Positions 2,037 through 58,507 of a stretch of DNA of 64,000 nt are shown here, piece by piece (positions within the stretch are counted from its first letter, which is position 1; every line of letters starts with the position of its first letter). A model generated the notes under the pieces. It worked only from the letters and a program-made list of their open reading frames with translations. It made no database searches and was not told where the DNA came from. Position numbers and translations under genes: made by a program. Source of the stretch: a virus. Lineage: Duplodnaviria; Caudoviricetes. The stretch lies in the IMG/VR virus record IMGVR_UViG_3300029288_003134, positions 1-64,000 of that record; one strand, given 5' to 3'.

Positions 2037-2517
2037 GCCAGCTCCTTAAACTTTACATTTTTATATTCCTGAGCAAGAGCGTGAGCCATATTCCGTAACA
2101 CGTTTATAGTGCTTTCTCTGCTGTACTGACTTTCAACAAGGTGAGTCCCTGTGTGAATGCGCGGGCCTACGGCTATGGTAATGGTTTTACGTTTAGGTTT
2201 CATATTAACTCCAAAGAATTAAAATGATCTGAGGCCTGGTCATAATCCAGAGTATTCAAAACTTCTTGACCAAAACGAAAAACACGATAGACCTTCTCGC
2301 TATTACACGTAAGGTATAAATCATGCACTTTCTTTGATCTACGGATTATCAGTGTTGGCATATAGAATTATTCCATTCAAACTCTTTGGTTATGGTATTA
2401 TATTGAGCATAGCCTCTCCCGATGGCCTGCTTTTCAAATTGTTCTTGTGTACCAATATATCCAATACATATACCCAAAATGAGTGCGAGAATACCAAAAC
2501 TTAGAAAATCGTCCATA

Positions 2518-2814
2518 TTATCCTCCGCGATTGAACCGCTTCAAGGCCGTTTTGAAAATGTGCTGGAAAATATTATCCTTAGCCGGAGCCGCCGGATTAT
2601 ACTTTTCCTTCATGTGATTGTAGAACTCCAGACCATCAGCTTTCTTGACATCTTTTTTAGCCTTGCAATTACTGGCAATAATGGCCTCCTGAGACTTCCG
2701 CAACTGGCCGATCTTCAACAGTTCATTGGCCGCATTCGGGTACTCGGGATTCGCGTTAAAGAACGCTTCGCGCTTGTTCAAATTCTGTGGTGCTGGTGGT
2801 GTCAACTTAGACAT
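2518..2814 (-). CDS. hypothetical protein
   Basis: ORF; start moved to MSKLTP with AAGGAG RBS, just downstream of a sigma70 promoter. Confidence 0.6.
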   Translation of the reverse strand: MSKLTPPAPQNLNKREAFFNANPEYPNAANELLKIGQLRKSQEAIIASNCKAKKDVKKADGLEFYNHMKEKYNPAAPAKDNIFQHIFKTALKRFNRGG

Positions 2815-2853
2815 CTTTTCGATCTCCTTTGTATGGTTTACGATTATGGAGCA

Positions 2854-2882
2854 AGTATACCACACAATTCTAAATTTGTCAA
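2854..2882 (-). promoter_or_regulatory. sigma70-type promoter TTGACA-17-TATACT with extended -10
   Basis: Minus strand TTGACA AATTTAGAATTGTGTGG TATACT; member of a repeated family. Confidence 0.85.
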
Positions 2883-2962
2883 TGGGTAGCCCGGTATTTC
2901 ATCCGTAGGTACTTCTGACCGAGCAAGCAGAGGTCGCATTCTCACTTTAAACTATGCTACCC
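2883..2962 (-). ncRNA. tRNA-like RNA (degenerate or mimic)
   Basis: GGGTAGC/GCTACCC stem, TAGTTTAAAGTGAGAAT D-like arm, GACC/GGTC arm with 11-nt loop, CGG-ATGAAATA-CCG T-like arm. Confidence 0.45.
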
Positions 2963-3196
2963 GGCTTCGCTTAAAGGTGCGGAAATCTATTCATTGCAAT
3001 AAAGACAAACCATCATGCCCAGAATAAAAGCCAAAAAACATACGCTGGCCCACACACCCAGCAAAAGCCAGAAAAGACTGGGCTGAATTGTATACTGATT
3101 ACCACAGAGTGTCCAGACATAGCTTTGAACAATCGCCGCTAAGCTGAATTTTACATACTGTTTTATTACGGGCTTACCGTTCAACATAAGGTCTCC

Positions 3197-3472
3197 TTAA
3201 AATACATCCAAATAAGTATGCGTGATTTCATCGTATACCCTTAAATGCGCCTGCTGAATACCCGGAAGTTCTTCTTTCAGAGTGATTTTCAATAGGCCCA
3301 TATCGTAGGCCTCTAATAGAGCATCCTCAAAACCCTCCACCCCTAAGCAGGCATACTTCGGAACCATTCGTAAAAGCTTTGGCGCAAAGACACGCATCAG
3401 CTTTAGAATAACTGCTCGCTGTTCATGGGTCATATCAGCGCATTTAATCAAGGGTATTTGTTTAGGTTCCAT
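3197..3472 (-). CDS. hypothetical protein
   Basis: ORF in a tightly packed minus-strand operon. Confidence 0.6.
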   Translation of the reverse strand: MEPKQIPLIKCADMTHEQRAVILKLMRVFAPKLLRMVPKYACLGVEGFEDALLEAYDMGLLKITLKEELPGIQQAHLRVYDEITHTYLDVF

Positions 3473-3659
3473 TGTTCCTCAGGCGAGCTAAAAACTTTTC
3501 CGGGCTAACGGGGTCAGCAATCTGGCAAATCTGCTCAATCCGAAAAAGTACAGCATTCTCCAAACGGTCTAACTGCTCAGAGGTTAGATGGTTTAACTTC
3601 TCAACGTGTTCAGCTTCGTGAATGATTCCCTTAATTGCCGCGAGTTTAAATAAGGCCAT
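3462..3659 (-). CDS. hypothetical protein
   Basis: ORF overlapping its neighbours, GGAG RBS. Confidence 0.55.
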   Translation of the reverse strand: MALFKLAAIKGIIHEAEHVEKLNHLTSEQLDRLENAVLFRIEQICQIADPVSPEKFLARLRNNGT

Positions 3660-4352
3660 CTAAAAATCTCCTTTTAAAACTTTATTCCACAAAATTGATA
3701 GTTTTTTAGTTTTTAAATACCACTTAGGTATCCAAAGTTTTAATTCTAACAGGGTTAAATCATTTTTAACGCTGTTAATACGAGTTGCACAAAGTACAAC
3801 ATTTCCGCGAATATAACCATATAAGGGATTTACTCGATCAATAGAAAGAGAATTTCTACTGCGCCCTTCTCCAACTTTCCAATCTAGCATAATTTTTGTG
3901 TAAAAGCATTTACCCCGCTGTAAGATAAAAAGTTTTTCTAAGTCTAACCGTGTTAAATTAAATTCAATATTGCGTTTTTTACACCGAGCTTTTAGCCTAG
4001 CATAATTTCCGCTGAGTCTGGTATGAATATCTGAATTAAGATTTAAGTATATTTGTCTTCTCCTACAATCATTACAATAAGAAAAATGATATTCATATTT
4101 TTGTCCACGCCTACCGTGTTGAAATTGAGTAATAGATTTAATCTTATTGCACCTAGAACACTTAGCCTCTTTTGAATTTATACGTTCTATAGGTTGATTT
4201 GCCCAAGTGGATTTAAAGCCATATTTATTTAACCAATAACTTATAGTCCGATGATGGGTAGATAAATAATTTGCTATAAATCTATTTGTTTTTCCCAGTT
4301 GATTCAAATTAAGCATAGTTTCTAAATCAAAAGTCGGCATCCGGGTCTCCAA
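3660..4352 (-). CDS. HNH-like homing endonuclease
   Basis: CxxC pairs, QRGKCFYT and LSIDRVNPLYGYIRGNVVLCATRINSVK beta-beta-alpha-metal motif; AT-rich; true start may lie slightly downstream. Confidence 0.8.
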   Translation of the reverse strand: METRMPTFDLETMLNLNQLGKTNRFIANYLSTHHRTISYWLNKYGFKSTWANQPIERINSKEAKCSRCNKIKSITQFQHGRRGQKYEYHFSYCNDCRRRQIYLNLNSDIHTRLSGNYARLKARCKKRNIEFNLTRLDLEKLFILQRGKCFYTKIMLDWKVGEGRSRNSLSIDRVNPLYGYIRGNVVLCATRINSVKNDLTLLELKLWIPKWYLKTKKLSILWNKVLKGDF

Positions 4353-5196
4353 CGCGCAAGACAGTTAAACCGAGTGAATGCCACATTCTACACACTTGCA
4401 AACGATCATCCAATACAAAATCAATATTATACTTCCCACGAATTTCTCGCTCGAATATTTCCCGCTTAACAATGGCGTCTTTACGGGTATCTCCGGTAGG
4501 CCGCATAAGAAGTCTATTTGTCCCAAAAAGTAAACCATAACGGAGTAGCCAGGCTAATGTTTCAGTCCTAACCTTTTCCTGCCTTCCAGAGACAAATAAA
4601 ATTGTAGGCGGAACTTGCCGAGTCTGTTCCATTAAAATAATATTTGCAACTGGGATATTAAGTAGATCAGTCCCACAGAGTTCCTCTTCATAGGGGCCTC
4701 TCCCGGAGTGAGTAGCAAGCGTCCCATCCAAATCACATATTACAGCACTAGGTAGATCGGAATTCCAGTAAATAAGCTCAGCCTTTGGCGCGAGATACCT
4801 CTTATACATATCCCGAATAACTTTTTCACCCGTGGAGTTAGGCCGCTGAAGATCACGTTTAATGCACTCTTCCACGTCTGTATCAAATCGCTGATAACTA
4901 AATTCAATTTTAGGGAATTGTTTCAAAATATAATCTTGAAAATTATTCAACCTAGCCGGATTCAAATTAGTCGCATCAACCAACACATCATAACCCATAG
5001 ACAGGGCTGTGATGGTACAGGCCCGCTCAAATTGAGTAATCAAATCTTCCTGGCGGGGGAGCCAATACTTCCCTCGCATATAGCGAAGATCATCCCGATT
5101 AACCCGTATCCAGTTTGTATTCTTCTGGCAGAACTCGCGTGACCACGTTGATTTGCCCGAAGCGATTAAACCAATAGTAAACTTGACCTTATTCAT
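4327..5196 (-). CDS. pseT: polynucleotide 5'-kinase/3'-phosphatase (T4 PseT-like)
   Basis: P-loop GLIASGKST, NRDDLR, DATN; HAD domain DLDGTLA, SGR, LLMRPTGDTRKD, DDR. Confidence 0.95.
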   Translation of the reverse strand: MNKVKFTIGLIASGKSTWSREFCQKNTNWIRVNRDDLRYMRGKYWLPRQEDLITQFERACTITALSMGYDVLVDATNLNPARLNNFQDYILKQFPKIEFSYQRFDTDVEECIKRDLQRPNSTGEKVIRDMYKRYLAPKAELIYWNSDLPSAVICDLDGTLATHSGRGPYEEELCGTDLLNIPVANIILMEQTRQVPPTILFVSGRQEKVRTETLAWLLRYGLLFGTNRLLMRPTGDTRKDAIVKREIFEREIRGKYNIDFVLDDRLQVCRMWHSLGLTVLRVGDPDADF

Positions 5197-5668
5197 GGCC
5201 CCTCCTTAATTTATCATAATGTAATCTGCAAAGACCTTTTGACGCATGTTTTCTGTTACAGTTTGGGATAGTACACTTTCTATTTTTTGTAAAGTGTATA
5301 CGACAATGCTCAGCCCTATTTATAATTTGTAAGTTTGAAAGAGTATTATTAAACTTATTTCCATCAATATGATGCACAATTTCAGAGGCTCTTAATTTAC
5401 GGCCTAAGGCCTGAGCCATTAAAAACCTATGATAATGTTGCCCTGCGTACTTTATGTAGGTTCTATTACCCGTACCCCGTAAAGCATCGCCACGCTTTTT
5501 AGCAGAGAACCGAGAATTTCCAATTTGTCTACAGGCTACAGAACAAAACTTAGCCTTAGGTTTATAGATAGATGACAGAAAAAATTCTCCGCATACTTTA
5601 CACCTGCGCTCTAAACATTTCAGCCTTAAATAATATTGTTTTTTATCTTCTGGATTTTTATACGGCAT
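5189..5668 (-). CDS. HNH homing endonuclease
   Basis: HRFLM...VHHIDGNKFNNTLSNL...H; zinc fingers at both ends. Confidence 0.9.
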   Translation of the reverse strand: MPYKNPEDKKQYYLRLKCLERRCKVCGEFFLSSIYKPKAKFCSVACRQIGNSRFSAKKRGDALRGTGNRTYIKYAGQHYHRFLMAQALGRKLRASEIVHHIDGNKFNNTLSNLQIINRAEHCRIHFTKNRKCTIPNCNRKHASKGLCRLHYDKLRRGHE

Positions 5669-5881
5669 ATAAATTAAGCTTAAAAGCTCTCCTTATACTC
5701 AGCACAGGCCGAACTATAGACTGTTTCTAATTTAGAATCATAGTGCATTAGTCTTCGATTAACTGAAATTATCGGGTAAATTGCTCGGCCCTCGCCACTT
5801 GGATGAGCCTGTGTTGGTGGAAATCTTTGACAATTTCGGATAACTCTAAACATACAATCTTTGCAGTCTTTATTTCTCCAG

Positions 5882-6574
5882 TTATCCATTCCAATACCTC
5901 CGGCGTACTTCCAATAGGAATTCATTAACTTTTTCTGGCTGTGCCTTACGCTCACATTTTGCTAAGGCTATTTTTGCTGTGTCCGTTAAATCCTCTGCTC
6001 GGTTAATAATCTGCCCAATATTAAACTGACCCTCTGGACAATTCTTAATCCACAATAACTCTGATTTAAAATTTTGATTATTTATTTCTAAACTAAAAGT
6101 TCCTGTCTCCAATAGATCAATCAAATTCCAGAGAGTTCTCAGGTAAGCTATAGCATACTTCTTGGGCCGGGCATCTTTCTTATCCAACATTTTACGCCGC
6201 TGATTAAGGCCATAGCCCACGAAAGCATTGAAGGCATCATTCGGATTCCATACATACGGAAAGAGTTCCCGCATAGCATAACCAAAGGTCATATCAATAC
6301 GCCAACTAGGATTACATTCAACAACCGGGGCTTTAAAAACCTCAAGAATTGTGGGATTACACTTTAAAGCCAGTTCAAGAAAGTGCTGAATTTCATAGGT
6401 GGTCTGATCTTCTTTGCCCTCGAACCAATGAGAACCTTTATAGTTATAATTCAAACTCAGAACTTTCTCAGTAGGCGTAACATAGACACCCCGAAAATCA
6501 TAATCCGAGTCTTCATTATGAAGGCCATGTGCCCGGCTACCCACTAAGCATTTAAGAATAAGAATGTCTTCCAT
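5882..6574 (-). CDS. Pol-beta-superfamily nucleotidyltransferase (RlaP/YcgL-like)
   Basis: VGSRAHGL..EDSDYDFRGVY and LKCNPTILE; start MEDILIL with GGAG RBS. Confidence 0.88.
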   Translation of the reverse strand: MEDILILKCLVGSRAHGLHNEDSDYDFRGVYVTPTEKVLSLNYNYKGSHWFEGKEDQTTYEIQHFLELALKCNPTILEVFKAPVVECNPSWRIDMTFGYAMRELFPYVWNPNDAFNAFVGYGLNQRRKMLDKKDARPKKYAIAYLRTLWNLIDLLETGTFSLEINNQNFKSELLWIKNCPEGQFNIGQIINRAEDLTDTAKIALAKCERKAQPEKVNEFLLEVRRRYWNG

Positions 6575-6575
6575 G

Positions 6576-6818
6576 CTATCTCCGTGCTTGAAGTGCACTT
6601 TTAAAAACACTAGCTAATCCAGTGTATACGTTTACACCCCTACCGGAATAGAGTCCGGCAAAATTAGCCCATTTCTCATCAGGTAATTTTATTTTATTTT
6701 TATAAATAAGTGAAAGTATTGGCTTAACCTTTTTCCATTGATATTCTGTATACTTTAGTTCTTTTAAACAGAACTGCCTTAGAGAAAGTTTCTTTGTAAG
6801 CATTAGTCTATCTTCCAT
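6576..6818 (-). CDS. hypothetical protein
   Basis: ORF within the operon. Confidence 0.5.
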   Translation of the reverse strand: MEDRLMLTKKLSLRQFCLKELKYTEYQWKKVKPILSLIYKNKIKLPDEKWANFAGLYSGRGVNVYTGLASVFKSALQARR

Positions 6819-6973
6819 AATTTAGTCCTTAGGTGGTGTTAATCGCCGTATAAATTCTTCTGCTGTTAAACCCTGCTTAGCAAAAATCCGAGCGCGTCTT
6901 TCCGCCTGCTTAGCTGAGAGAAAGGATGCTCTGATACTCTTTGCCGTAGTTGCAGAGAACTTTTTTAAATTCA

Positions 6974-7315
6974 TTACCCCTGTACCCCGTCTAATAATTG
7001 TCTCAGTTGCCCTTCAAATATTTTAAAATTTCTATGTGGAAAAGATATTTCAGCTGTCGTTAATTGAATCAGCTTATACATGCCCATTAAAGTTGCCGTA
7101 CCGTTATAGGAAACCTTTAACGTCAAGCCGTCTTTTACATACCAGGCACCTAAACCCTGACCACAGATAGCATATAATTCATAACCTAATCGCTTTGCTT
7201 CAGCATACCCTGGTAATTTATTGGTATCCATCAGACCCGCCCCTTCAGCCAAACGATCAAGAATAAAACCACCACGATTAAAGGAATTGTATAGAGGCCC
7301 ATTATGATACCTCAA
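6974..7315 (-). CDS. hypothetical protein
   Basis: ORF; true start probably the internal MDTNKL. Confidence 0.5.
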   Translation of the reverse strand: MRYHNGPLYNSFNRGGFILDRLAEGAGLMDTNKLPGYAEAKRLGYELYAICGQGLGAWYVKDGLTLKVSYNGTATLMGMYKLIQLTTAEISFPHRNFKIFEGQLRQLLDGVQG

Positions 7316-7634
7316 TCTTTTCTTTGGACATAGAAATCCAAATAGTCATACCCCAATATTTATTGGTATCCCTAATGCTGGCTATCTCGATAATACGCGC
7401 CCAAGGTTCGATCTCAGCAAGAAGCTTTTTGTACTGCTGATAACCCAAAGTTAGACTAGTTGGCTTATGCCCTGTCTTTGCCTGAAAAGCATCACGGGCG
7501 ATTGATATTTGGCTACGAATATTTTCCATGCTATTCATCCTTGAACTTGTAAATTTCAACCGTTCTTTCCGGTGAAGTAATTCCCCAATCCTGATAAATA
7601 ATATTTGGCTCCTCCGTAAGATCAGAGGGAACAC
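7302..7634 (-). CDS. hypothetical protein
   Basis: ORF; true start probably internal (MNSMEN). Confidence 0.5.
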   Translation of the reverse strand: MFPLILRRSQILFIRIGELLHRKERLKFTSSRMNSMENIRSQISIARDAFQAKTGHKPTSLTLGYQQYKKLLAEIEPWARIIEIASIRDTNKYWGMTIWISMSKEKIEVS

Positions 7635-8187
7635 AGCAGGGAATATTCACAATGGTAAAATCATCCATGCAGATTGCACCCAGGACATTACTTAAAAGAG
7701 CATGCGAATGAACACAGACAACCAAGACTTTACTCTGTGGGTGGTGCTTAAATTGCAAGTCTTCTATCCGGGCTTTAATCGTCCAAAGCCTATCAATTTG
7801 GGGATGTTCGCCATCCGGTAAAGAACACTTGGGGTCAATCGAGAGAACCTTCCAGGCAGTCCTGAAAGCGAATACCGCGCCAGTTCTGGGCTTGCATCCA
7901 TCACCGATCACATAACAGGTTACTGTTTTATCCGTGAATGAGTAATCATTTTGGAGATGCTTTCTTACCGCATTATAGGCCCCGAAGGATTCCGTGATCT
8001 CCTTAGCATTCGGAAAAAACTTTGTCTGCAAAAGATCAGCCCCGCAGGTTATCCGGGTAAGCTCATTGAGATAGCGCAGATCGGGCCGCTTGATCTCAAC
8101 TGTGATACTGGCTTGGTTTTCCTGGTAAGAGATAACGGAGTCTCGGCCATTCTTTACAGCTCTTTGCTTTCCTAGAAAGTTTTTCAT
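7531..8187 (-). CDS. putative class I SAM-dependent methyltransferase
   Basis: Rossmann-like motif I YVIGDG, acidic motif II LSIDP, downstream HSH and IPCC. Confidence 0.6.
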   Translation of the reverse strand: MKNFLGKQRAVKNGRDSVISYQENQASITVEIKRPDLRYLNELTRITCGADLLQTKFFPNAKEITESFGAYNAVRKHLQNDYSFTDKTVTCYVIGDGCKPRTGAVFAFRTAWKVLSIDPKCSLPDGEHPQIDRLWTIKARIEDLQFKHHPQSKVLVVCVHSHALLSNVLGAICMDDFTIVNIPCCVPSDLTEEPNIIYQDWGITSPERTVEIYKFKDE

Positions 8188-8195
8188 AAAGCTCC

Positions 8196-8636
8196 TTAGA
8201 TATTTCCAGTTAGAACAAATTTTATTAGGTGGGGTAAAAGTCGCTTTACCTGTTCCTGCGTTAAGTGCATACGAGTATCACAAAGCGTGCCTTCCGGCAT
8301 CTCTACAGGCACCCAGCCTTGACCCGGTTTACATACGCGAGGATTCGCCTCCTCACAGCCGAGCCAGATGCAGTTTTTAGTGGCTAATGAGGACTTCTGT
8401 AGTGAACAAGCCACACGATAATAGTCACGAAAAACCCGAATATTAAAACCACGCTTTGTTTTCTTTAATTTAAAGGAGTCTTTCTCAGCAGGTTTTTCCC
8501 AAATATGCCAAATTCCAGTTATACGATTCTGGCGGCATGTCCACCCACGCATTAACCGCCAAGCAATAATACGGTTCTTTGTGATGGTAGAATGATTTCC
8601 TAAAATCGTATACTTTTTATCCCACATCTGAAGCAT
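8196..8636 (-). CDS. conserved phage hypothetical protein
   Basis: CSLQKSSLA...IWLG...TRMHLTQEQV, a motif I recognise from other phage proteins. Confidence 0.65.
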   Translation of the reverse strand: MLQMWDKKYTILGNHSTITKNRIIAWRLMRGWTCRQNRITGIWHIWEKPAEKDSFKLKKTKRGFNIRVFRDYYRVACSLQKSSLATKNCIWLGCEEANPRVCKPGQGWVPVEMPEGTLCDTRMHLTQEQVKRLLPHLIKFVLTGNI

Positions 8637-9699
8637 CCTGTTTAAATGGTTTTGAATAATCGGGTTGAATCAAATCCCAAATTATCCGATCATAGGGTTT
8701 ACCTTTCCACATAGCAAACAAAAGCCCTGAGTCTTTTTCCTGAGCAATCTTCGTAGCAATCGGGTTAAGTATACCACACTCTTTTGCTTTTGTCAAGTCC
8801 GGGTAATTAGAAAGCGTATCTTCAGCCCATTGTTTCTTAGACTCGAAGGCCCTAATTAAAGCTCTACTTGTGTACTTTACCCACTCAAAAAACTCATCCG
8901 GCACTCGGTCAAGCAGATCATTCAAAGGCTGTCCATCTCGTAGATATTCCCAGATCGTCTTGGTACTTACGCCTGTAATAATTCTGTGCAAGCGAACATA
9001 TTCCTCAAACTTCATCTTTACTCGTAGACCCGTATCAAACTGAATAACAAAGCCCTCCTTGCCGATCTCCTGCACCTGTCTTAGGGTCACAAGATCAAAG
9101 GAAGTTATTGGGTATTGCTTAACCAAATTTAATCCCCAAGCACCCGCAAAGGCCTGCATCTCAGCATAAGACCACTCTTCGCCCGTTTCATTATTGATTA
9201 CGGCTAGGAGAATGAGATCACGGGTATTGCCATAGTCAACCACGATTCTATTTTCTGGATAAATTATCTCGAATAAAAATGTAAAGCCAGCGGAATAGGG
9301 AACTGCTGTATATTTTTCCTTCCAAATTCTCGTGGCTTCTATAGCCTGCTCACTTTCAAAGCTTCCTCGCGTGGCAATTCGGCCCTCCCCATCTGGTAAA
9401 AAGTAGAGAATCCCGAGGCTACCATCCATCTTCTCTAAGGCTGTGAAGCGGTGGAAGGCCGGAAGCTTACCTAGAAAAGAGCCTTCTTGATACTCCTCGT
9501 AGTTAAAGAACTTGCTGAAAGGCCGAGCAATAACATTGCCAGCCCCATCCAGAATTAACCCGCGACATTGTAAGGTCAGTTCGTTCCAAAAGCGATCATA
9601 CTGAGTCTTTGCGGTGTAATTGTAAATAAAATAATCAGCGGTTGGATGCTTCCGCTCAGTGATATAGCCCTGATCTATGAGAGTTCTATCAATTTTCAT
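8617..9699 (-). CDS. rnlA: RNA ligase, T4 Rnl1 family
   Basis: CRGLI, RPFSKFFN, EKMDGSL, ATRGSF, FEII, EGFVI, KMK. Confidence 0.93.
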   Translation of the reverse strand: MKIDRTLIDQGYITERKHPTADYFIYNYTAKTQYDRFWNELTLQCRGLILDGAGNVIARPFSKFFNYEEYQEGSFLGKLPAFHRFTALEKMDGSLGILYFLPDGEGRIATRGSFESEQAIEATRIWKEKYTAVPYSAGFTFLFEIIYPENRIVVDYGNTRDLILLAVINNETGEEWSYAEMQAFAGAWGLNLVKQYPITSFDLVTLRQVQEIGKEGFVIQFDTGLRVKMKFEEYVRLHRIITGVSTKTIWEYLRDGQPLNDLLDRVPDEFFEWVKYTSRALIRAFESKKQWAEDTLSNYPDLTKAKECGILNPIATKIAQEKDSGLLFAMWKGKPYDRIIWDLIQPDYSKPFKQDASDVG

Positions 9700-10825: not shown

Positions 10826-11800
10826 TTAAAACTTTTTCGTAATACTGCCGCCATAACTTGAATCGTGAATACTCATTGAAATAACTTCACCTTTTTCATT
10901 CTTAATAACCGTGGTCTCACTGCCGTCTGGGACTAAGGTACTGATCTTTTTCTCCAGCTCCTCAATCCGGCGTTCTTCATAACTCTTTCCGAGCTTAATG
11001 GTCAAACGGCCCTGAAAAATATTATTATCATTATTCACATCACGTCCGGCCTGTAATGACCAAGTGGTGTGTTTTGTATCGAGAACTCGCAACTCTCCAA
11101 CGATCTCATAACGATCTTTAAGGCCCCTACCCTGCGGCCCGGTAAGCCCGGTATCACCTTTGGCCCCTTGATCTCCGTCCTTATAATCAACATTTTTTAC
11201 AGGTGTCTTTCCATCCGTACCCTTGGCACCTTGGGGCCCTACTGCACCGTCCGCGCCGTCATTACCAGCCTTACCGGGGTCTCCTTGATCGCCCTTTACA
11301 CCATCTAAGCCGTCTTTCCCGGCGGGCCCTGTATCACCCTTAGCCCCATCTGAACCATTTAAACCATCTCTGCCGTCTTGCCCATCGAGACCATTCAAAC
11401 CGTCCTTACCTGCGGCTCCGGTATCGCCGTTATCGCCTTTATCACCCTTTGCACCGTCAAGGCCGTCCCTACCATTAGCCCCAGTATCACCCTTTTCGCC
11501 TTTGTCACCCTTTAATTCTGGAACATCTTTGGGATTAACCCAAGTGCCTAAACTATTATTACCTTTCTCACCACAATAGGTAAAAATATCCCCGGCCTTT
11601 CCGTCATTTGTATCCTGAACATTGCTATCAAAAGTACAGCCCGGCTCCGTGCAGGCTCTAACCGGACTAACCTGGAAGATTAAAAGAAGAGCCAGGATTA
11701 CTGCCAAATAAACCAGTGGTGAGACCATACTCGGGATAATTCTGGCCGATAACGAAATACTCTGTCCAATAAACTGAATACCCTCAAAAAATTTCTTCAT
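10826..11800 (-). CDS. collagen-like protein with N-terminal signal/TM segment
   Basis: About 40 Gly-X-Y triplets; hydrophobic N-terminus ending VRA. Confidence 0.9.
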   Translation of the reverse strand: MKKFFEGIQFIGQSISLSARIIPSMVSPLVYLAVILALLLIFQVSPVRACTEPGCTFDSNVQDTNDGKAGDIFTYCGEKGNNSLGTWVNPKDVPELKGDKGEKGDTGANGRDGLDGAKGDKGDNGDTGAAGKDGLNGLDGQDGRDGLNGSDGAKGDTGPAGKDGLDGVKGDQGDPGKAGNDGADGAVGPQGAKGTDGKTPVKNVDYKDGDQGAKGDTGLTGPQGRGLKDRYEIVGELRVLDTKHTTWSLQAGRDVNNDNNIFQGRLTIKLGKSYEERRIEELEKKISTLVPDGSETTVIKNEKGEVISMSIHDSSYGGSITKKF

Positions 11801-14668: not shown

Positions 14669-16318
14669 CTATTGTTGCGTAATACAGGGGATATAGTGCA
14701 TCCCAACTTTAAAATTGCGGTTGAAATAATGTTGCACAAATTCCGGCTCAATATCTGTCTCTGAAATAATATCTGCCGGGGTGTTAATCCATTTATTTAT
14801 TCTTGCCGCCTCAATGTTAAGAGCTTTAATGAAGTTCTGATTAAACTTAATATGCACCGTACCTTTCTTGTAAGCCCGGACTGACATAAAAAGTTTCTCG
14901 CCATCCCCTGAGTTCATATAAAAGTCATTTTCTTTTCCGGCATCCCAGGACATATCAAACGAGGATGATAGAACATCAAAACCAAGGTTCCGGCCAATCG
15001 TGCAAAGATCATTCAGAAAATTATTTACATCCTTATGCAAACCGTTAGGATATTCAAATCTTCCGTAATCACTGGAATTAAAGCAGTTATATCTAGTAAC
15101 AACAATCCGATAATCCAGCGTATAATGAGAATGCTTTGTATCTCGATAACGCCAAGATGATTGCAGGATTGCCTTGTTTGATTTATAATTATGGATATTT
15201 TCTTGCGCCGTCAACTCATGGAACATATCGCACAACTGGGAATCCATGTATTTGTTCGCATTCTTCACGGCCCACAGTATCACAGCATAGGCATTGTTCA
15301 CAGTAAAGTCAATATCTGTGTGTTCAAAAAGTTTGTCCAAAAGTTTCTTGCGACTGTCCGAAGTCAACAGATCAGTCAACTTGTCGAGGTTATCAAAAAG
15401 TTCTTTCCAATAGATAGCCTTCAGCCCTTTGATCTTGACTTTTAAACCCTCCTTGAGTCCTTTCAGATCAACATTAAGCTCTTTAAGAATATCCGCAGGA
15501 AGGCCCTCAACAACCCGATAGGTCTTGAGAAGTTCTTGCGTGGCGTTAATGTAAAGTTCGCTCAAGGTCTCCAGTAAATTCCGGCCTTTGACTAGGGCGT
15601 GCAGTTGTTCTTTCTTCGCGGCCTCGTCCTGATAATCAGAGGTCTTTTCCTTCTCAGCCTGAAACTTAAAGGTTTCCTCAAACCAAAGATCAAAAGGGTC
15701 TACCTCGCACATTTCCCTGGAGCTATGGTAACTTGAATCCGATAGGTTAATATGAACAATTTCAACCTTAGCCCGCGCCTCTCGAAACTCAGAATGCAGA
15801 AAATCGAAAGACCCAATTACTGAATACCTTGAGGTCTCCTTGCGCCTTTTCAGAGCCGCCAAAATTTCCGGCTGATCTTTCCAGCGTTCCGGGATTACTA
15901 AATAAATATGACTGGCGTTTGCCTCCTTGATGATTTTAATGACCCATTCTTTGAACTCCGAATAAGGCGGATTGCAAAAGATCACATCAACCCGCTTGTC
16001 AATCAAGGTCTGCTCCATAAAGTCAGTGCCGAGAATAAAAACATCTTCCGGCATTTCTTTTATGAGTATGGCAGATTTTTCAATCGCGTATTTTTTATAG
16101 ATATTGAACTTTCTCGGAGTGTCCGCATCTTCAGAGGCTTTTTGAATTTCTTCCGCGATCTTAAAGAAATGCCCATTACCCGCCCCAACGTCCAGCAGAT
16201 TAACGCCTGATTGATGCCGGGTAATATCTTGGCAGACTTTTTCGATGATCTCCCGAGTAGTCGGGTAAAACTCAAAGTCCTGGCCGTTCTGTTTCAAGTT
16301 TTCAATTAAAGCTTTCAA
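14669..16318 (-). CDS. DUF4942-type DNA amino-methyltransferase
   Basis: FEFYPT, LLDVGAGNG, IFCNPPYS, C-terminal AYKKGTVHIKF. Confidence 0.85.
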   Translation of the reverse strand: MKALIENLKQNGQDFEFYPTTREIIEKVCQDITRHQSGVNLLDVGAGNGHFFKIAEEIQKASEDADTPRKFNIYKKYAIEKSAILIKEMPEDVFILGTDFMEQTLIDKRVDVIFCNPPYSEFKEWVIKIIKEANASHIYLVIPERWKDQPEILAALKRRKETSRYSVIGSFDFLHSEFREARAKVEIVHINLSDSSYHSSREMCEVDPFDLWFEETFKFQAEKEKTSDYQDEAAKKEQLHALVKGRNLLETLSELYINATQELLKTYRVVEGLPADILKELNVDLKGLKEGLKVKIKGLKAIYWKELFDNLDKLTDLLTSDSRKKLLDKLFEHTDIDFTVNNAYAVILWAVKNANKYMDSQLCDMFHELTAQENIHNYKSNKAILQSSWRYRDTKHSHYTLDYRIVVTRYNCFNSSDYGRFEYPNGLHKDVNNFLNDLCTIGRNLGFDVLSSSFDMSWDAGKENDFYMNSGDGEKLFMSVRAYKKGTVHIKFNQNFIKALNIEAARINKWINTPADIISETDIEPEFVQHYFNRNFKVGMHYIPCITQQ

Positions 16319-17927: not shown

Positions 17928-18851
17928 TTAAAGAACTGCCGCGCTTTCTTCCTCCGCCTTTTCCGTGGCGGCGATCTCTTCAAACTTAATGCCCAGCATA
18001 TAGTCAACTGCCCGCTGTGCCCTCGCGCTTGCCATAACAACCATTTTTTCATCATTACGCAAGGCCTGAATCCAGCTGTTAATGTAAGCCTGGGAATTGT
18101 CCAGCGTTTTATTATCAATCCCGGTTAAGGTACACAAGAACGCCGTCCCGATCTCTGCCGTCAATTCTTCTTTGCTGTAATTGTGCCCGCCAAAACCGTC
18201 ATGCTGTGCCAGCTCTTCCCGGTCAAGTCTTTTCTCGTGCCCGGTACTGTGAACAAGTTCATGGAAAAGAGTGCTGTAATATTCCTCCTCGCTGATAAAA
18301 GCCCGCTGTTCCGGCATGGTTACGGCGTCCCGGCTGGGAGAATAACAAGCCCGCGCTAAGCCGCTGTGATTGATCTGGGGCCTGGTGGCGTACCCGCTGA
18401 CGATCTTTTCGCATTGTTCGATTTTCTGAAACTCGGTTAAGGCCTGGGTGTTACTGTCGTATTTAAGGCCCTCGGTCTGTTCGATATTGAAAACCCGATA
18501 ATATTTCAATAACGCAATCTTGCGAACTTTGGGCTTTCCGTCCGGCCCGATCTCTTCCGTCTTTCTGTGCAGAAAATTCCAATAAATAACCAGCTGACTT
18601 TGTGCCCCTTTCTTGACCTTCCCGCCCTTATTGCTGACCTGTTTGAACGTCAAATAATAAGGCTGTGTATAACCCCTTTCCTGCATGTCCAGCCACAAAA
18701 GCAGGGCGTTAATTCCCCGGTAAGGTTTTTTGCTGATGAAGTTTACCGGATGCCCTCCGCCTTTCCAAGGCTTCTGCCAAGGAATAGCCCCTTTTTGCAA
18801 TCCCTCAATGATCTTATTGGTTACTGTCTGGTAAAGGTCTTTGTTTGTCAC
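17928..18851 (-). CDS. ardC: ArdC-family anti-restriction ssDNA-binding protein with zincin domain
   Basis: IPWQKPW, YRGIN, LTFKQ, VFNIEQ, FHELVHSTGH, YSKEELTAE. Confidence 0.93.
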   Translation of the reverse strand: MTNKDLYQTVTNKIIEGLQKGAIPWQKPWKGGGHPVNFISKKPYRGINALLLWLDMQERGYTQPYYLTFKQVSNKGGKVKKGAQSQLVIYWNFLHRKTEEIGPDGKPKVRKIALLKYYRVFNIEQTEGLKYDSNTQALTEFQKIEQCEKIVSGYATRPQINHSGLARACYSPSRDAVTMPEQRAFISEEEYYSTLFHELVHSTGHEKRLDREELAQHDGFGGHNYSKEELTAEIGTAFLCTLTGIDNKTLDNSQAYINSWIQALRNDEKMVVMASARAQRAVDYMLGIKFEEIAATEKAEEESAAVL

Positions 18852-29958: not shown

Positions 29959-30032
29959 GGCGGGTTAATGTAGTGGCCGCATGGGATGTTCATACCTTCT
30001 CAGACACGGTTCGATTCCGTGGCCCGCAACCA
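29959..30032 (+). tRNA. tRNA with CAT anticodon (Met/fMet-like, atypical)
   Basis: GGCGGGT/GCCCGCA acceptor with 1:72 mismatch, loop TTCATAC, GGTTCGATTCC, encoded CCA. Confidence 0.85.
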
Positions 30033-51937: not shown

Positions 51938-52018
51938 AGTCTGTTACCCTACAATATTGCGAATACACCGGATTGTAGGTTAATTGAGTCGAAAAGAGCC
52001 CCTGGAATGATGGGGCAT

Positions 52019-52062
52019 GGGCTGGATAGCCGGGGATTCCTGGCGTTCAGCCCTTTCTTTTT
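52019..52062 (+). terminator. intrinsic terminator ending the late block
   Basis: GGGCTGGA..GCCGGG-GATT-CCTGGC..TTCAGCCC followed by TTTCTTTTT. Confidence 0.7.
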
Positions 52063-52069
52063 GTCCCGA

Positions 52070-53000
52070 GCGGGGATAATCTGCCGGAAATCTGGTCAGA
52101 AATGATCGGAGAAGTGGTCAATTATACCCTATATGGCATGGAATTTAGACCTGTGGATGCTGTATAGCGCATGATCTATAGGCCGCCGGGCGCGGCCCGC
52201 TTGCCGTGAATCAGCCCTCGCTACCGCTCCGGCATGATTCCGGCCCTTATGCAATCCCCTACAATCGTATGTATCGAACCATACAAGACGGTTCGGAAAG
52301 TTATACAAAGTTTAGCCCGATATAGCGTGCGCCCCGCGATAGCCAGCCTCGGGCCGTCCGTTCCACTCCCGCCCCTCGGCACGGCTTCGCCTCACTGCCA
52401 CAGAGCTGAACTGAGCTGAGCCCCACAGCCCTGCACTGTCAAAGGCCCGCAAGCGGGCCCAGCAAAGGCCATCGAATTACATCTCATTACATGACAGTAA
52501 TTTAACAATCCTGTTACAGTCCAGCGCAGACCCCCGTCCAGAGCAGTTCACCGGAAATTCCGGCACACTCATTTCTCTTGTCAGAAAAAACATACACTCT
52601 TTCTGACAGAAATCGCGCCTTCAACTATAGAACTGTCAAAATTCGACAGTTTCCCGCACAAATGACTCAATGTATACACAGGAGTACACATTCTGTGGCA
52701 GGAGTGCTACAGGTTCTTGCTGTGACAAAACTGATACAATTACCGCCAACAATCGCCTCATTCCTTAAATGACTCCAAAAGGGCCTCCAGCAACGTCAGG
52801 ATGCCCTACAGTAACAGTTCTGCTACAGAGGGGCCCACAGTGCTGTCTCATAGAAAGTGCCAGGAAAAGGCCCCGTAGGGGCCACTGTAGCGGCCCGAAG
52901 CGGTGGCAGAGCGAAGCGGAGCCCCGCTGAGGGGATAAGATAGGGCAGGTAGGGGGTAAGTTATAGGGAATTAAGGAGTTCTATAAGGATGTCACCGTGG
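52070..53000. other. non-coding hairpin-rich region, candidate replication origin
   Basis: GC hairpins, GCGAAGC on opposite strands in inverted arms, C-rich left and G-rich right. Confidence 0.5.
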
Positions 53001-53062
53001 GCAAGAAACTAGCTGGTCTTTCTTGTCGTCGTAAGGCTGACCGCATTTAGGGCAATATCTTT

Positions 53063-54460: not shown

Positions 54461-54612
54461 TTAAGACTCACTTTCTTCGCATTCAACACAAATACAGTTT
54501 TTACCCGCTGGATTACAACAGGCCGTAGAGCCCTCAAATTGGCATCTTGGACAGGAGACCAACTGATCTTTCTTATCATCGTAAGCTTGACCACACTTCG
54601 GGCAATATCTTT

Positions 54613-55503
54613 TCATTCCGGGCTCCTTTTAAGATTATATTTTAAGTAGTAATCAAAAAGAAACTGTCCGCAACTCGCCCCAACATCGACACCGGGTGGA
54701 CAATAATACTCCGTCTTGATACCCGCAGGACTTAACACAGGATTAAAAACAGTGGAAATGATCTGCATATCCTGTTCTTTTGTTGTTTTGGGGCTATCCG
54801 TGTTATACCGCAGAAATTTAACGGAGGCTTTAATCTGTTGAGCATACTCCTTTAATCGAAGCGCATCCTCTGGTCTATCGTTTATCCCCTGAATTAAGGC
54901 GTAATGGATTTCGATTGGAAAATCTTTTTTGGCTAAGTAAACCAGCGGGCCCAGGGAGTCTGTAATGGTTAAGGCTTTTGGCATCCAAAGCTTTCTACGG
55001 GAATCTTCCGTAAAGTGCAGTGACCAATGAAACTTAACCGAAATATGGTTATCAATCAAACAGGCTACAAAATTTGTAAACTGCCGCCATACCATATCCT
55101 GCGGAAAGAGTGAGGCCAATGCAAACCGGGAATTTGGAAAAACTTTGTGAATTCTATTCATGGAGGAGAAAACACCTGTCATATTGAGTAGGGGTTCCCC
55201 ACAGCCCATATAAGAAACCAAAAGGAGTTTCTGATTGTCTAAATTTAATATGCGATAGACCTGCTCTACTGCGGAGGAGATTTCATTCCAACGAATATTT
55301 CTTACCTGAAGCTTTCCAAGAAATTTTGTTGTATAACAGAACTTGCAGCCCTGTAAACATGCGGATTGAGAGGATACGCATAAAATATCTTTGCCGTCAT
55401 CCTTATTGATATAGGCAATCTCAAAGATCAAACCGTCGCTTAATTGGAATACAAATTTAACGGTTTTATCAACTTTGGATTTAATAGTATCAAGTAATCG
55501 CAT
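54613..55503 (-). CDS. RlmN/Cfr-like radical SAM methyltransferase
   Basis: LCVSSQSACLQGCKFCYT, MGCGEP, SLH, IQGIND, GVDVGASCGQ. Confidence 0.88.
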   Translation of the reverse strand: MRLLDTIKSKVDKTVKFVFQLSDGLIFEIAYINKDDGKDILCVSSQSACLQGCKFCYTTKFLGKLQVRNIRWNEISSAVEQVYRILNLDNQKLLLVSYMGCGEPLLNMTGVFSSMNRIHKVFPNSRFALASLFPQDMVWRQFTNFVACLIDNHISVKFHWSLHFTEDSRRKLWMPKALTITDSLGPLVYLAKKDFPIEIHYALIQGINDRPEDALRLKEYAQQIKASVKFLRYNTDSPKTTKEQDMQIISTVFNPVLSPAGIKTEYYCPPGVDVGASCGQFLFDYYLKYNLKRSPE

Positions 55504-55506
55504 TAT

Positions 55507-56052
55507 TTATCCTTTGAGGGCGTAAAACCCGGAGGGGCCCTTCTTTAGGTGAAGTCTTACGCCTTTTTTGGCCGCTATTCCTCTGTTCAGGGCTTTCAAC
55601 TCCGGGTTATTCAAGTAACTCCAGATTTTCTGTTTTTGCTCTTCAATCGGCAGACCTTCAAGTTTTGAGTGTAATTCTTGAGGAACAAAAGCACAATTTT
55701 CTAAGGTATAGTTTTTGTCGGAATCAAACCTATGCAAATTGGGTCTCTTCATCCTAGCTGCTTGGTAAGAATCCCAAAGTTGTTTAATAGTTGTTTTATC
55801 TAACTCACACTTAATACCTTTACGTTGATAAGCGGTCTTTTCTCGTTTACACCGCTCCTTAGCTTTTGACAGAGAGACTAGCCAGGGTTTTAATTTTTTG
55901 TATTTTTCGAGATATGCTCTTTGTTTGTCTGGATTTTTCTTTTGCCACTCTCGGACTGTTTGACTAACCTTAGCTTTATGCCTATAATAATATCGTAATT
56001 GTTTTGCAATTAGTCTCAGACGATATTTTTGATATTTGGCAGTAGAGTTCAT
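55507..56052 (-). CDS. HNH-like endonuclease
   Basis: Basic helical N-terminus, PNLHRFDSDKNYTLENCAFV. Confidence 0.7.
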   Translation of the reverse strand: MNSTAKYQKYRLRLIAKQLRYYYRHKAKVSQTVREWQKKNPDKQRAYLEKYKKLKPWLVSLSKAKERCKREKTAYQRKGIKCELDKTTIKQLWDSYQAARMKRPNLHRFDSDKNYTLENCAFVPQELHSKLEGLPIEEQKQKIWSYLNNPELKALNRGIAAKKGVRLHLKKGPSGFYALKG

Positions 56053-57568: not shown

Positions 57569-57655
57569 TGGTGGGCCGGGGTGGACTCGAACCACCGAAG
57601 GACTAAAGTCCGGCAGCTTTACAGGCTGCTGCGATAGCCGCTCTGCCACCGACCC
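57569..57655 (-). tRNA. tRNA-Tyr(GTA)
   Basis: GGGTCGG/CCGGCCC acceptor, GCAGC-CTGTAAA-GCTGC, long variable arm, GGTTCGAGTCC, ACCA. Confidence 0.95.
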
Positions 57656-57831: not shown

Positions 57832-58212
57832 TCACAGGTCTACCTCCGAAGCTTTTGGATTTGGCCTAAAATAAAGATTAAACGGTTTTCCTGATTTTCT
57901 AGTCAGCGTAAGTGTGTGCTCGGTTCCCACAGATTCTCCGTCCCAAAAGATTAACACAAAATCCGCATGGGCCACGATCTGATTGTTTCTGAGAACACCT
58001 GCGCTCTTACCGTACTGTTCCCAATCAGCCGGAAAAATCTGTGTTTTACACCCCTGTGCTTCTGCGATCTGCTGTGCCAAAGTATCCACGCCTCGCGCAC
58101 CCCCCGAAACAACAGTAATATCGGGATAATCAACACAGATTTGTGTGACCACACTTTTGACAAATTCCATGTCAGCAAAATTACGACTACCCACTACGGC
58201 AACTTTATTCAT
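57832..58212 (-). CDS. SLOG-family (YspA/DUF2493) protein
   Basis: VAVVGSRNF, SGGARGVD, ADWEQYGKSAG..RN, FWDGESVGT. Confidence 0.88.
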   Translation of the reverse strand: MNKVAVVGSRNFADMEFVKSVVTQICVDYPDITVVSGGARGVDTLAQQIAEAQGCKTQIFPADWEQYGKSAGVLRNNQIVAHADFVLIFWDGESVGTEHTLTLTRKSGKPFNLYFRPNPKASEVDL

Positions 58213-58507
58213 CGTTATTCTCCAGGTCTTGTGCATCTTCTTCGTTAAAGAGGTCTGTTTCAGTTGGCTGAACCCCGTTAATAATGTCCTCAGCTTCACG
58301 TAATGCTGCGTGCTTATAAAGATCAAAGATATAATTTTCTAAGGCGTCCATGGAATCAAACGAAACTGATTCACGGTCTTCCACGTAAAGAAGGTACTCT
58401 GTTACCAGCCCGGCTGTTACTGCACCCTTGGCCCGCTCATAAGTGACCCGGATGAGCCACTCTTTATTCGGGTAGGTCTGATTTAAAATTTTAAACAAAT
58501 GTTCCAT
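58205..58507 (-). CDS. hypothetical acidic protein
   Basis: GGAG RBS before MEHLFK. Confidence 0.55.
   Translation of the reverse strand: MEHLFKILNQTYPNKEWLIRVTYERAKGAVTAGLVTEYLLYVEDRESVSFDSMDALENYIFDLYKHAALREAEDIINGVQPTETDLFNEEDAQDLENNDE

What the first reader, a model, noticed from the sequence alone, without database searches (positions are those of the whole stretch)
54613..55503. Phage RlmN/Cfr-like radical SAM methyltransferase
Seen: the CxxxCxxC cluster motif and both mechanistic cysteine positions (LCVSSQ and ASCGQ) are retained, MGMGEP has become MGCGEP, and the N-terminal helical domain is absent. Established: RlmN and Cfr methylate C2 or C8 of adenosine in 23S rRNA A2503, and RlmN also tRNA A37. 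Inference: the phage modifies host ribosomes, its own tRNAs or tRNA mimics, or a non-RNA target. This fits the genome's wider investment in RNA repair.
Basis: partly seen in the sequence, partly recalled or inferred. Interest (0 to 1): 0.7.

Follow-up and report, generated by a model that had tools for sequence, protein, structure and literature searches.

The report
Phage RlmN-like methylase lacking RNA-binding domain
A 92.5-kb uncultivated phage carries an intact catalytic core of the RlmN/Cfr radical-SAM methylase type that lacks the RNA-binding N-terminal domain; it belongs to a large, uncharacterised, mostly viral family whose target is unknown and may be a free nucleotide rather than ribosomal RNA.

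Summary
Window 54613-55503 (-) encodes a 296-aa protein with the CX3CX2C cluster motif, both RlmN/Cfr mechanistic cysteines (C42, C278), MGCGEP, and no N-terminal helical domain. A confident AlphaFold model (pLDDT 96) matches RlmN and Cfr structures best.

It is not RlmN or Cfr proper. It scores 120 bits against a 290-bit RlmN cut-off. In trees it lies deep in a large radiation of about 290-aa proteins without the N-terminal domain (phrog_27142), outside the clade of full-length RlmN and Cfr. It is therefore not a recent host copy.

Relatives occur in many uncultivated phages and in Tunturi_5. More distant ones are in 201phi2-1 and CcrColossus. A second copy sits beside a canonical RlmN in some Patescibacteria and gut Bacilli.

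Catalytic and SAM-binding residues are kept. Residues that hold flanking RNA in Cfr are replaced by family-specific ones. Members of its supergroup are repeatedly fused or adjacent to dCMP deaminase and dUTPase.

My best reading (about 0.4) is an active methyl synthase acting on a free nucleotide. An RNA target (about 0.3) remains open and fits this phage's Pnkp/Rnl1/RlaP repair genes. A thymidylate-synthase replacement was tested and not supported.

The parts
54613..55503 (-). Gene for a 296-aa radical-SAM methyl synthase core of the RlmN/Cfr type without the N-terminal domain (phrog_27142 family).
   Evidence: ORF; TIGR00048 at 119.9 bits over profile 74-342/355; phrog_27142 at E 3.6e-24; AlphaFold pLDDT 96.2; Foldseek top hits are RlmN and Cfr.
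55378..55380 (-). Codon for C42, the equivalent of RlmN C118 and Cfr C105, which resolves the covalent enzyme-substrate adduct.
   Evidence: Translation; alignment column holds Cys in 119/137 family members without the N-terminal domain and in all full-length RlmN/Cfr sequences.
55336..55359 (-). Codons for the CX3CX2C motif (C49, C53, C56) that binds the [4Fe-4S] cluster.
   Evidence: Translation; the columns are invariant.
55192..55209 (-). Codons for MGCGEP (residues 99-104), the SAM-binding glycine-rich motif. The third position is variable in the family.
54670..54672 (-). Codon for C278, the equivalent of RlmN C355 and Cfr C338, the methyl-carrying cysteine.
   Evidence: invariant column.
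54461..54616 (-). Downstream 51-aa Cys-rich (zinc-ribbon-like) ORF whose ATG overlaps the methylase stop codon (ATGA). It is probably co-translated here but is not a family trait.
   Evidence: Sequence. No equivalent lies downstream of 11 homologues, and tblastn found no hit in about 130 related loci.
55507..56052 (-). Upstream 181-aa very basic protein (pI 10.1) with a weak HNH-endonuclease match. It ends 3 nt before the methylase ATG and is not conserved next to homologues.

Best explanation
The gene encodes an active class A radical-SAM methyl synthase.

Proposed mechanism, by homology with RlmN and Cfr: C278 is methylated by a first SAM. A [4Fe-4S] cluster on C49/C53/C56 cleaves a second SAM to a 5'-deoxyadenosyl radical, which abstracts hydrogen from the methyl-cysteine. 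The resulting methylene radical adds to an sp2 carbon of a nucleobase, and C42 resolves the covalent adduct.

This part is supported by residue conservation and a confident fold, not by assay.

Proposed substrate (inferred): the enzyme has lost the RNA-docking N-terminal domain and the polar sites that hold flanking nucleotides. It therefore most likely acts on a free (deoxy)nucleotide or a nucleotide-like small molecule rather than on 23S rRNA A2503 or tRNA A37. On this reading the gene is a stand-alone nucleotide-modifying accessory gene expressed in the phage's minus-strand operon of small non-structural genes.
For: Catalytic core:
- E28, C42, C49/53/56, MGxGEP, S161, H163 and C278 are conserved.
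- AlphaFold pLDDT is 96.2.
- The best structural matches are RlmN and Cfr, with TM about 0.76.

Loss of RNA-holding features:
- The N-terminal domain is absent. In Cfr it anchors the H90-92 junction.
- Cfr S103, S151 and S187, which hold the U2504 phosphate, become I/V, L and A/G in the family.
- The basic residues that contact the H90 stem (R184, R249, K250) are lost.
- New conserved K38, K157, H159, E198 and E265 line the same positions.

Links to nucleotide enzymes within the window protein's own supergroup:
- C-terminal dCMP-deaminase fusions occur in at least 8 gut-Bacilli loci and in P0229. The deaminase domain scores 88 bits to ComEB against 26 to TadA.
- One triple fusion also carries a bona fide dUTPase (131 bits against a 103-bit cut-off).
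- One fusion is followed directly by a dUTPase gene.
- One protein, P0185, has the reverse order, deaminase then rSAM.
- A deaminase gene lies immediately upstream in phage loci L110 and L006 and nearby in L106 and L140. A dUTPase lies next to L119 and near L008. That is 6 of 35 dereplicated loci.
- L106 and L110 are the window protein's nearest relatives with known context.
- No such link was seen in the 21-row clade that holds RlmN and Cfr.
- The ESM Atlas also lists a 57-member cluster of RlmN-like plus NUDIX fusions (not checked further).

Cellular genomes: those with a copy lacking the N-terminal domain also keep a canonical RlmN (5 of 5), so the short copy does something else.
Against: - No class A radical-SAM methylase acting on a free nucleotide is known to me (my own knowledge).
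- This phage encodes none of dCMP deaminase, dUTPase, NUDIX, ThyA or ThyX. Its own genome instead holds RNA-repair genes and two tRNAs.
- Neighbours of phage homologues also include translation genes: Thg1 x2, PTH2 x2 and IF-3 x2.
- One archaeal member, in a clade nearer RlmN, is fused to the tRNA-A37 enzyme Kae1.
- The N-terminal deaminase fusion is a singleton.
- The residue mapping rests on alignment at about 25% identity and on a preprint structure.
- Radical-SAM turnover is slow for bulk nucleotide supply (my own knowledge).
Confidence: 0.4

Rival explanations
1. It is an RNA adenine C-methylase acting on a tRNA anticodon loop, phage or host tRNA, or rRNA. It would recognise its target without the N-terminal domain, perhaps through a partner protein. 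Its role would be to tune translation or to protect tRNAs in the same conflict that the phage's Pnkp/Rnl1/RlaP repair genes address.
For: - All characterised homologues methylate RNA adenines.
- The genome carries Pnkp, RlaP, an Rnl1-type ligase, tRNA-Tyr 2 kb away and tRNA-Met.
- Neighbours of homologues in other phages include Thg1, PTH2 and IF-3, and a tRNA nucleotidyltransferase lies near CcrColossus gp283.
- An archaeal member without the N-terminal domain is fused to Kae1/TsaD, which acts on tRNA A37.
- S97, equivalent to Cfr S153 which contacts the target ribose, is conserved.
- The window protein is basic, with pI 9.0.
Against: - The N-terminal domain is missing. Two Cfr serines that hold the flanking phosphate are hydrophobic (I40, L95) and a third is alanine (A128). 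The basic residues that bind the RNA stem are lost.
- The Kae1 fusion is a single ORF in a different clade, closer to RlmN.
- No conserved partner gene exists.
- Cells with the short copy already have a canonical RlmN.
Confidence: 0.3
2. It is a folate-independent, SAM-dependent thymidylate synthase that methylates dUMP supplied by dCMP deaminase and dUTPase.
For: dCMP deaminase and dUTPase both make dUMP, and both are fused or adjacent to family members. This phage has neither ThyA nor ThyX.
Against: - Every cellular genome tested that carries the gene also has ThyA or ThyX: 4 of 4 and 5 of 5.
- One phage locus has ThyA within 1.5 kb of the gene.
- Two SAM per methyl group and slow turnover make bulk dTMP supply implausible (my own knowledge).
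Confidence: 0.07
3. It C-methylates bases in DNA after replication, as protection from host restriction.
For: The phage invests in anti-restriction: an ArdC-like protein and a DUF4942/N6-methylase protein. No RNA-specific domain is present.
Against: The same loss of flanking-phosphate sites argues against any polynucleotide substrate. I know of no precedent for C2- or C8-methyladenine in DNA.
Confidence: 0.08
4. It acts on a non-nucleotide substrate such as a protein or small metabolite, or it is a non-catalytic relic.
For: The target is unassigned. One phage subclade (201phi2-1, CcrColossus) has lost the C118-equivalent cysteine, which shows that chemistry drifts within the wider family.
Against: In the window protein every catalytic and SAM-binding residue is intact. 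The family is under strong conservation, with 9 invariant and 22 nearly invariant columns over 118 sequences.
Confidence: 0.1

Closest known systems
RlmN (E. coli; TIGR00048; PDB 3RFA, 5HR7)
   Same: Radical-SAM TIM-barrel core with a beta-sheet extension, CX3CX2C, both mechanistic cysteines, the glutamate and Ser/His SAM-site residues, and the C-terminal CGQ loop. TM is about 0.76.
   Different: About 25% identity. It scores 119.9 bits against a 290-bit cut-off. The HhH2 N-terminal domain is absent, the residues lining the flanking-nucleotide positions differ, and it lies outside the RlmN clade.
Cfr / Cfr(D) (NF000424, TIGR04432; PDB 9P0P)
   Same: Same fold and mechanism residues. It is the best PDB sequence hit, at E 4e-16.
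   Different: It scores 66-73 bits against cut-offs of 468-550. It has no N-terminal domain. Cfr and Cfr(D) form a pair with 100% support inside the clade of full-length enzymes, far from the window protein. Nothing here indicates antibiotic-resistance activity.
phrog_27142 ('Fe-S-cluster redox domain-containing'), for example Tunturiibacter phage Tunturi_5 gp170, Pseudomonas phage 201phi2-1 gp434 and Caulobacter phage CcrColossus gp283
   Same: Same phage family of about 300 aa without the N-terminal domain. Tunturi_5 gp170 is 36% identical and shares C42, K157, H159, E198 and E265.
   Different: The 201phi2-1 / CcrColossus / Viktualia subclade has Tyr in place of the C118-equivalent cysteine and MARGEP instead of MGxGEP. 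None of these proteins has an assigned function.
Gut-Bacilli fusions of the rSAM core with dCMP deaminase, with or without dUTPase (L043, L079, P0229)
   Same: The core without the N-terminal domain belongs to the same 45-row supergroup. It is 26-31% identical.
   Different: These are cellular genes with a LysR-family regulator gene upstream (a cluster spanning 37 of the 80 cellular loci). They carry a C-terminal extension or fused nucleotide enzymes.

Membership tests
RlmN (TIGR00048 equivalog) | Score at or above the curated cut-off (290 bits) | tested here: not met
   119.9 bits.
RlmN (TIGR00048 equivalog) | N-terminal HhH2 RNA-binding domain | tested here: not met
   Only profile positions 74-342 are matched. 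No coding room lies upstream. The model starts with beta strands.
RlmN (TIGR00048 equivalog) | Placement within the RlmN clade | tested here: not met
   Full-length RlmN and Cfr form their own clade (support 99-100). The window protein lies elsewhere.
RlmN (TIGR00048 equivalog) | Forms m2A at 23S A2503 or tRNA A37 | not testable with these tools
   Needs biochemistry.
Cfr family (NF000424, TIGR04432, NF011024) | Score at or above the curated cut-offs (468-550 bits) | tested here: not met
   66-73 bits.
Class A radical-SAM methyl synthases (RlmN/Cfr superfamily) | CX3CX2C cluster motif plus the two mechanistic cysteines | tested here: met
   C49/C53/C56, C42 and C278.
Class A radical-SAM methyl synthases (RlmN/Cfr superfamily) | RlmN/Cfr fold: partial TIM barrel with an N-terminal beta extension and a C-terminal Cys loop | tested here: met
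   pLDDT 96.2. The top 11 PDB hits are all RlmN or Cfr, with TM 0.65-0.78. The next fold, the PFL activase, has TM 0.56.
Class A radical-SAM methyl synthases (RlmN/Cfr superfamily) | SAM-site residues (Cfr E91, S212, H214 and the GxGEP motif) | tested here: met
   E28, S161, H163 and MGCGEP.
phrog_27142 | Full-length match to the family profile | tested here: met
   E 3.6e-24 over profile positions 8-299 of 300.

The most novel reading that the evidence does not exclude
The RlmN-like family without the N-terminal domain, this phage gene included, is the first class A radical-SAM methyl synthase that works on the free (deoxy)nucleotide pool. It would act together with dCMP deaminase, dUTPase or NUDIX enzymes and make a C-methylated nucleotide. 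Such a product could be a new route to a modified DNA base or a nucleotide analogue used in phage-host conflict.
Probability: 0.35. Interest if true: 0.85.

Novelty: new variant of a known kind. Interest (0 to 1): 0.6.

Why it matters
So far as I know, RlmN and Cfr are the only characterised class A radical-SAM methylases, and both act on RNA. Here a catalytic core has shed its RNA-docking domain and remodelled the positions that hold flanking nucleotides. It has radiated through phages, including cultured jumbo phages, and sits as a second copy in some bacteria.

If the family methylates free nucleotides, it adds a new chemistry to nucleotide metabolism and to phage DNA or nucleotide modification. 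If it methylates tRNA, it would be a phage-encoded anticodon-loop modifier that sits alongside tRNA repair genes.

Either answer is directly testable, because the cysteine-to-alanine trapping variant known from RlmN and Cfr should capture the substrate covalently. The result also corrects automatic annotations: sources call relatives '23S rRNA (adenine2503-C2)-methyltransferase', which the membership tests do not support.

Tried and rejected
1. Recent host rlmN copy: rejected. It scores below the cut-off, shows about 25% identity to RlmN, and has a separate tree position.

2. Conserved operon partner, including the overlapping 51-aa Cys-rich ORF noted by another first-stage reading: rejected. 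No neighbour is shared among distinct loci.

3. The short form replaces RlmN in reduced genomes: rejected. All 5 cellular genomes tested also have a full-length RlmN over the cut-off.

4. Core gene of Patescibacteria, or a hint to the host: not supported. Only the seed genome among 201 sampled has the close paralogue, although the surrounding genes in those contigs are cellular.

5. Replacement for thymidylate synthase: not supported. ThyA or ThyX is present in all 9 cellular genomes tested.

6. Net charge or pI as an indicator of RNA binding: uninformative.

7. Search for fusions longer than 556 aa: nothing found, which is weak evidence.

8. Literature searches for a characterised phage RlmN-like enzyme or one without the N-terminal domain: none found.

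9. Rfam and repeat scans of the ORF-free stretch at 51938-53062: nothing beyond a minus-strand terminator-like hairpin.

10. Annotated neighbourhoods in cultured phages (Arash, JGB6, Viktualia, 201phi2-1, CcrColossus, Tunturi_5): nearly all hypothetical proteins.

Full report
**What is there.** The window is the first 64 kb of a 92,558-bp IMG/VR virus record that CheckV rates 100% complete. It has a plus-strand structural block and minus-strand blocks of replication and accessory genes: DnaB, portal, SbcC, RecA, PolA, ArdC and a DNA methylase.

The ORF at 54613-55503 (-) encodes 296 aa. Residues 42-56 read CVSSQSACLQGCKFC. MGCGEP is at residues 99-104 and ASCGQ at 276-280.

The gene is tightly packed. 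The upstream ORF stops 3 nt before its ATG. Its TGA overlaps the ATG of a 51-aa Cys-rich ORF.

**Family assignment.**
- NCBIfam gives RlmN TIGR00048 at E 1.2e-34 but only 119.9 bits against a 290-bit cut-off, over profile positions 74-342 of 355. Cfr models score 66-73 bits against cut-offs of 468-550.
- Pfam sees only a sub-threshold Radical_SAM match.
- PHROGs places it full-length in phrog_27142, 'Fe-S-cluster redox domain-containing'.
- PDB sequence hits are Cfr (9p0p, 4e-16) and RlmN (3rf9, 1e-13), starting at residue 75 and 89 of those chains.
- An AlphaFold model built on 118 family sequences has pLDDT 96.2 and pTM 0.93, and starts with four beta strands.
- The eleven best Foldseek hits are all RlmN or Cfr, with TM up to 0.78.

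One refinement applies: the Cys of MGCGEP occupies a variable position in the family.

**A large family of its own.**
- The 5.8-billion-protein search found 311 homologues at E below 1e-5. The best are 40-52% identical and 285-300 aa long.
- The exhaustive representative search found 77 clusters (at 50% identity) at E below 1e-30. Nearly all start at query residue 1-10. Full-length RlmN of about 350 aa appears only around E 1e-23.
- In a 150-row tree and in two IQ-TREE trees, full-length RlmN and Cfr form one well-supported clade. The window protein lies deep among sequences without the N-terminal domain. Its sister is metagenomic P0002 (52% identity), inside a group made of IMG/VR phage loci, unlabelled metagenomic sequences and Tunturi_5 gp170.
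- It is therefore not a recent host copy.
- Of 137 members without the N-terminal domain, 119 keep both mechanistic cysteines. A subclade that includes 201phi2-1 gp434 and CcrColossus gp283 has Tyr or Val at the first cysteine position.

**Distribution.**
- Phages: 57 GenBank phage records carry a homologue, among them Tunturi_5, 201phi2-1, Phabio, Psa21, CcrColossus, Brevundimonas jumbo phages, Arash and JGB6. There are also 47 IMG/VR loci, 35 after dereplication.
- Patescibacteria: homologues at 41-46% identity sit in a few Patescibacteria MAG contigs among cellular genes such as ArgRS, SmpB, HSP70 and DnaA. Only the seed genome among 201 sampled Patescibacteria has one.
- Gut Bacilli: a more distant clade of about 330 aa is common in gut Bacilli and 'Tenericutes' MAGs. 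A LysR-family regulator gene lies about 1 kb upstream, as a neighbour cluster spanning 37 of the 80 cellular loci.
- All five cellular genomes tested also carry a full-length RlmN over the cut-off. The short protein is therefore a paralogue with another job.

**Context.**
- No gene is conserved next to it across distinct phages. None of the window's neighbours recurs in about 130 related loci. The Cys-rich peptide coupling noted in another first-stage reading is local to this phage.
- This phage does hold a T4-style RNA-repair set: Pnkp at 4327-5196, RlaP at 5882-6610, an Rnl1-type ligase at 8617-9699 and a second ligase-like gene at 1056-2036. It has tRNA-Tyr and tRNA-Met and no other tRNAs.
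- It has no ThyA, ThyX, dCMP deaminase, dUTPase or NUDIX gene.

**Clues to the substrate.**

*Second, residue mapping.* I mapped that paper's contact residues through motif-anchored alignment columns.
- Catalytic and SAM-site residues are kept: E28, C42, S161, H163 and C278.
- Cfr S103, S151 and S187, which grip the phosphate of the 3' neighbouring nucleotide, are I/V, L and A/G in the family. The canonical enzymes have T/S, N/S and T/S at these positions.
- The basic residues that contact the RNA stem (R184, R249, K250) are lost.
- Positions that contact flanking bases carry family-specific conserved K157, H159, E198 and E265.

*Third, gene fusions and neighbours.*
- The gut clade includes proteins of 491-509 aa with a C-terminal dCMP-deaminase domain, which scores 88 bits to ComEB against 26 to TadA.
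- One 677-aa protein adds a true dUTPase, and one fusion is followed directly by a dUTPase gene.
- P0185 has the reverse order, deaminase then rSAM. It is a singleton.
- In phages a deaminase gene lies immediately upstream in L110 and L006 and nearby in L106 and L140. The L110 deaminase is 57% identical to the gut fusion's deaminase domain. A dUTPase lies beside L119 and near L008.
- L106 and L110 are the window protein's nearest relatives of known context. None of these links falls in the clade that holds RlmN and Cfr.
- The ESM Atlas independently lists the deaminase-fusion cluster and an RlmN-like plus NUDIX cluster.

*Counter-evidence.*
- A tally of 144 flanking phage proteins is mixed. 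It includes Thg1, PTH2 and IF-3 (two each) as well as deaminase, NUDIX, RNR, NrdD, ThyA, NT5C and dUTPase.
- One archaeal member, in the clade nearer RlmN, is fused to Kae1.

**Conclusion.** The chemistry is very probably RlmN-like methyl synthase chemistry. The target is unassigned.
- I rank a free nucleotide or nucleotide-like substrate first, at about 0.4.
- An RNA target recognised in a non-canonical way comes second, at about 0.3.
- The specific idea of a folate-independent thymidylate synthase was tested by complementary distribution and not supported.
- The literature held here describes no characterised member.
- The cysteine-to-alanine trapping variant offers a direct experimental route to the substrate.

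**Limits.** Residue mapping relies on alignments at about 25% identity. Model coordinates could not be inspected. Neighbourhood enrichment has no size-matched control.

Noticed in passing
window 1056-9699 (-): T4-style RNA repair set: Pnkp kinase-phosphatase (4327-5196), RlaP nucleotidyltransferase (5882-6610), Rnl1-type RNA ligase (8617-9699) and a weak ATP-dependent ligase-like gene (1056-2036). This suggests the host uses anticodon nucleases or similar tRNA-cleaving defence.
   Followed up: partly
window 57569-57655 (-) and 57832-58326 (-): tRNA-Tyr(GTA) lies directly downstream of a YspA/SLOG (DprA-like) protein. A second tRNA, Met(CAT), sits at 29959-30032 (+) inside the structural block. 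There are no other tRNAs in the genome.
   Followed up: partly
window 51938-53062: A 1.1-kb ORF-poor, relatively GC-rich stretch between the converging plus-strand and minus-strand gene blocks. It has no Rfam match and no repeats, only a minus-strand terminator-like hairpin at 52883-52869.
   Followed up: yes
window 17928-18851 (-) and 14669-16318 (-): An ArdC-like anti-restriction N-terminal domain fused to a zincin peptidase, and a 549-aa DUF4942 / N6-methylase protein. Both point to investment in counter-restriction.
   Followed up: no
window 10826-11800 (-): A 324-aa protein with collagen triple-helix repeats in the minus-strand block.
   Followed up: no
L025:10458-12872 (genome 88458-90872, -): A family A DNA polymerase with an N-terminal UDG-superfamily domain ahead of the 3'-5' exonuclease domain.
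   Followed up: no
L024:13668-14801 and L024:10624-11658 (genome 75668-76801 and 72624-73658, -): A phage-encoded M16 (insulinase-type) peptidase, and a protein that combines a GcrA-like N-terminus with a metallophosphoesterase domain.
   Followed up: no
L044:1925-3775 (Pacearchaeota MAG contig VGKQ01000037.1): A single 616-aa ORF fusing an RlmN-like core without the N-terminal domain (173 bits to TIGR00048) to a full Kae1/TsaD tRNA-t6A37 synthase (425 bits). Only one instance was seen.
   Followed up: partly
L017:2977-3885 (201phi2-1 gp434), L018:2974-3879 (CcrColossus gp283), L145:3974-4885 (Viktualia): A jumbo-phage subclade of the family has Tyr in place of the adduct-resolving cysteine and MARGEP in place of MGxGEP, while keeping the methyl-carrying cysteine. 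By analogy with RlmN C118A this could change or stall the chemistry.
   Followed up: partly
L040:4793-5710 and equivalent positions across a 37-locus neighbour cluster (gut Bacilli / Tenericutes MAGs): A LysR-family regulator is conserved about 1 kb upstream of the paralogue without the N-terminal domain. This is an unusual partner for an RNA-modification gene.
   Followed up: partly
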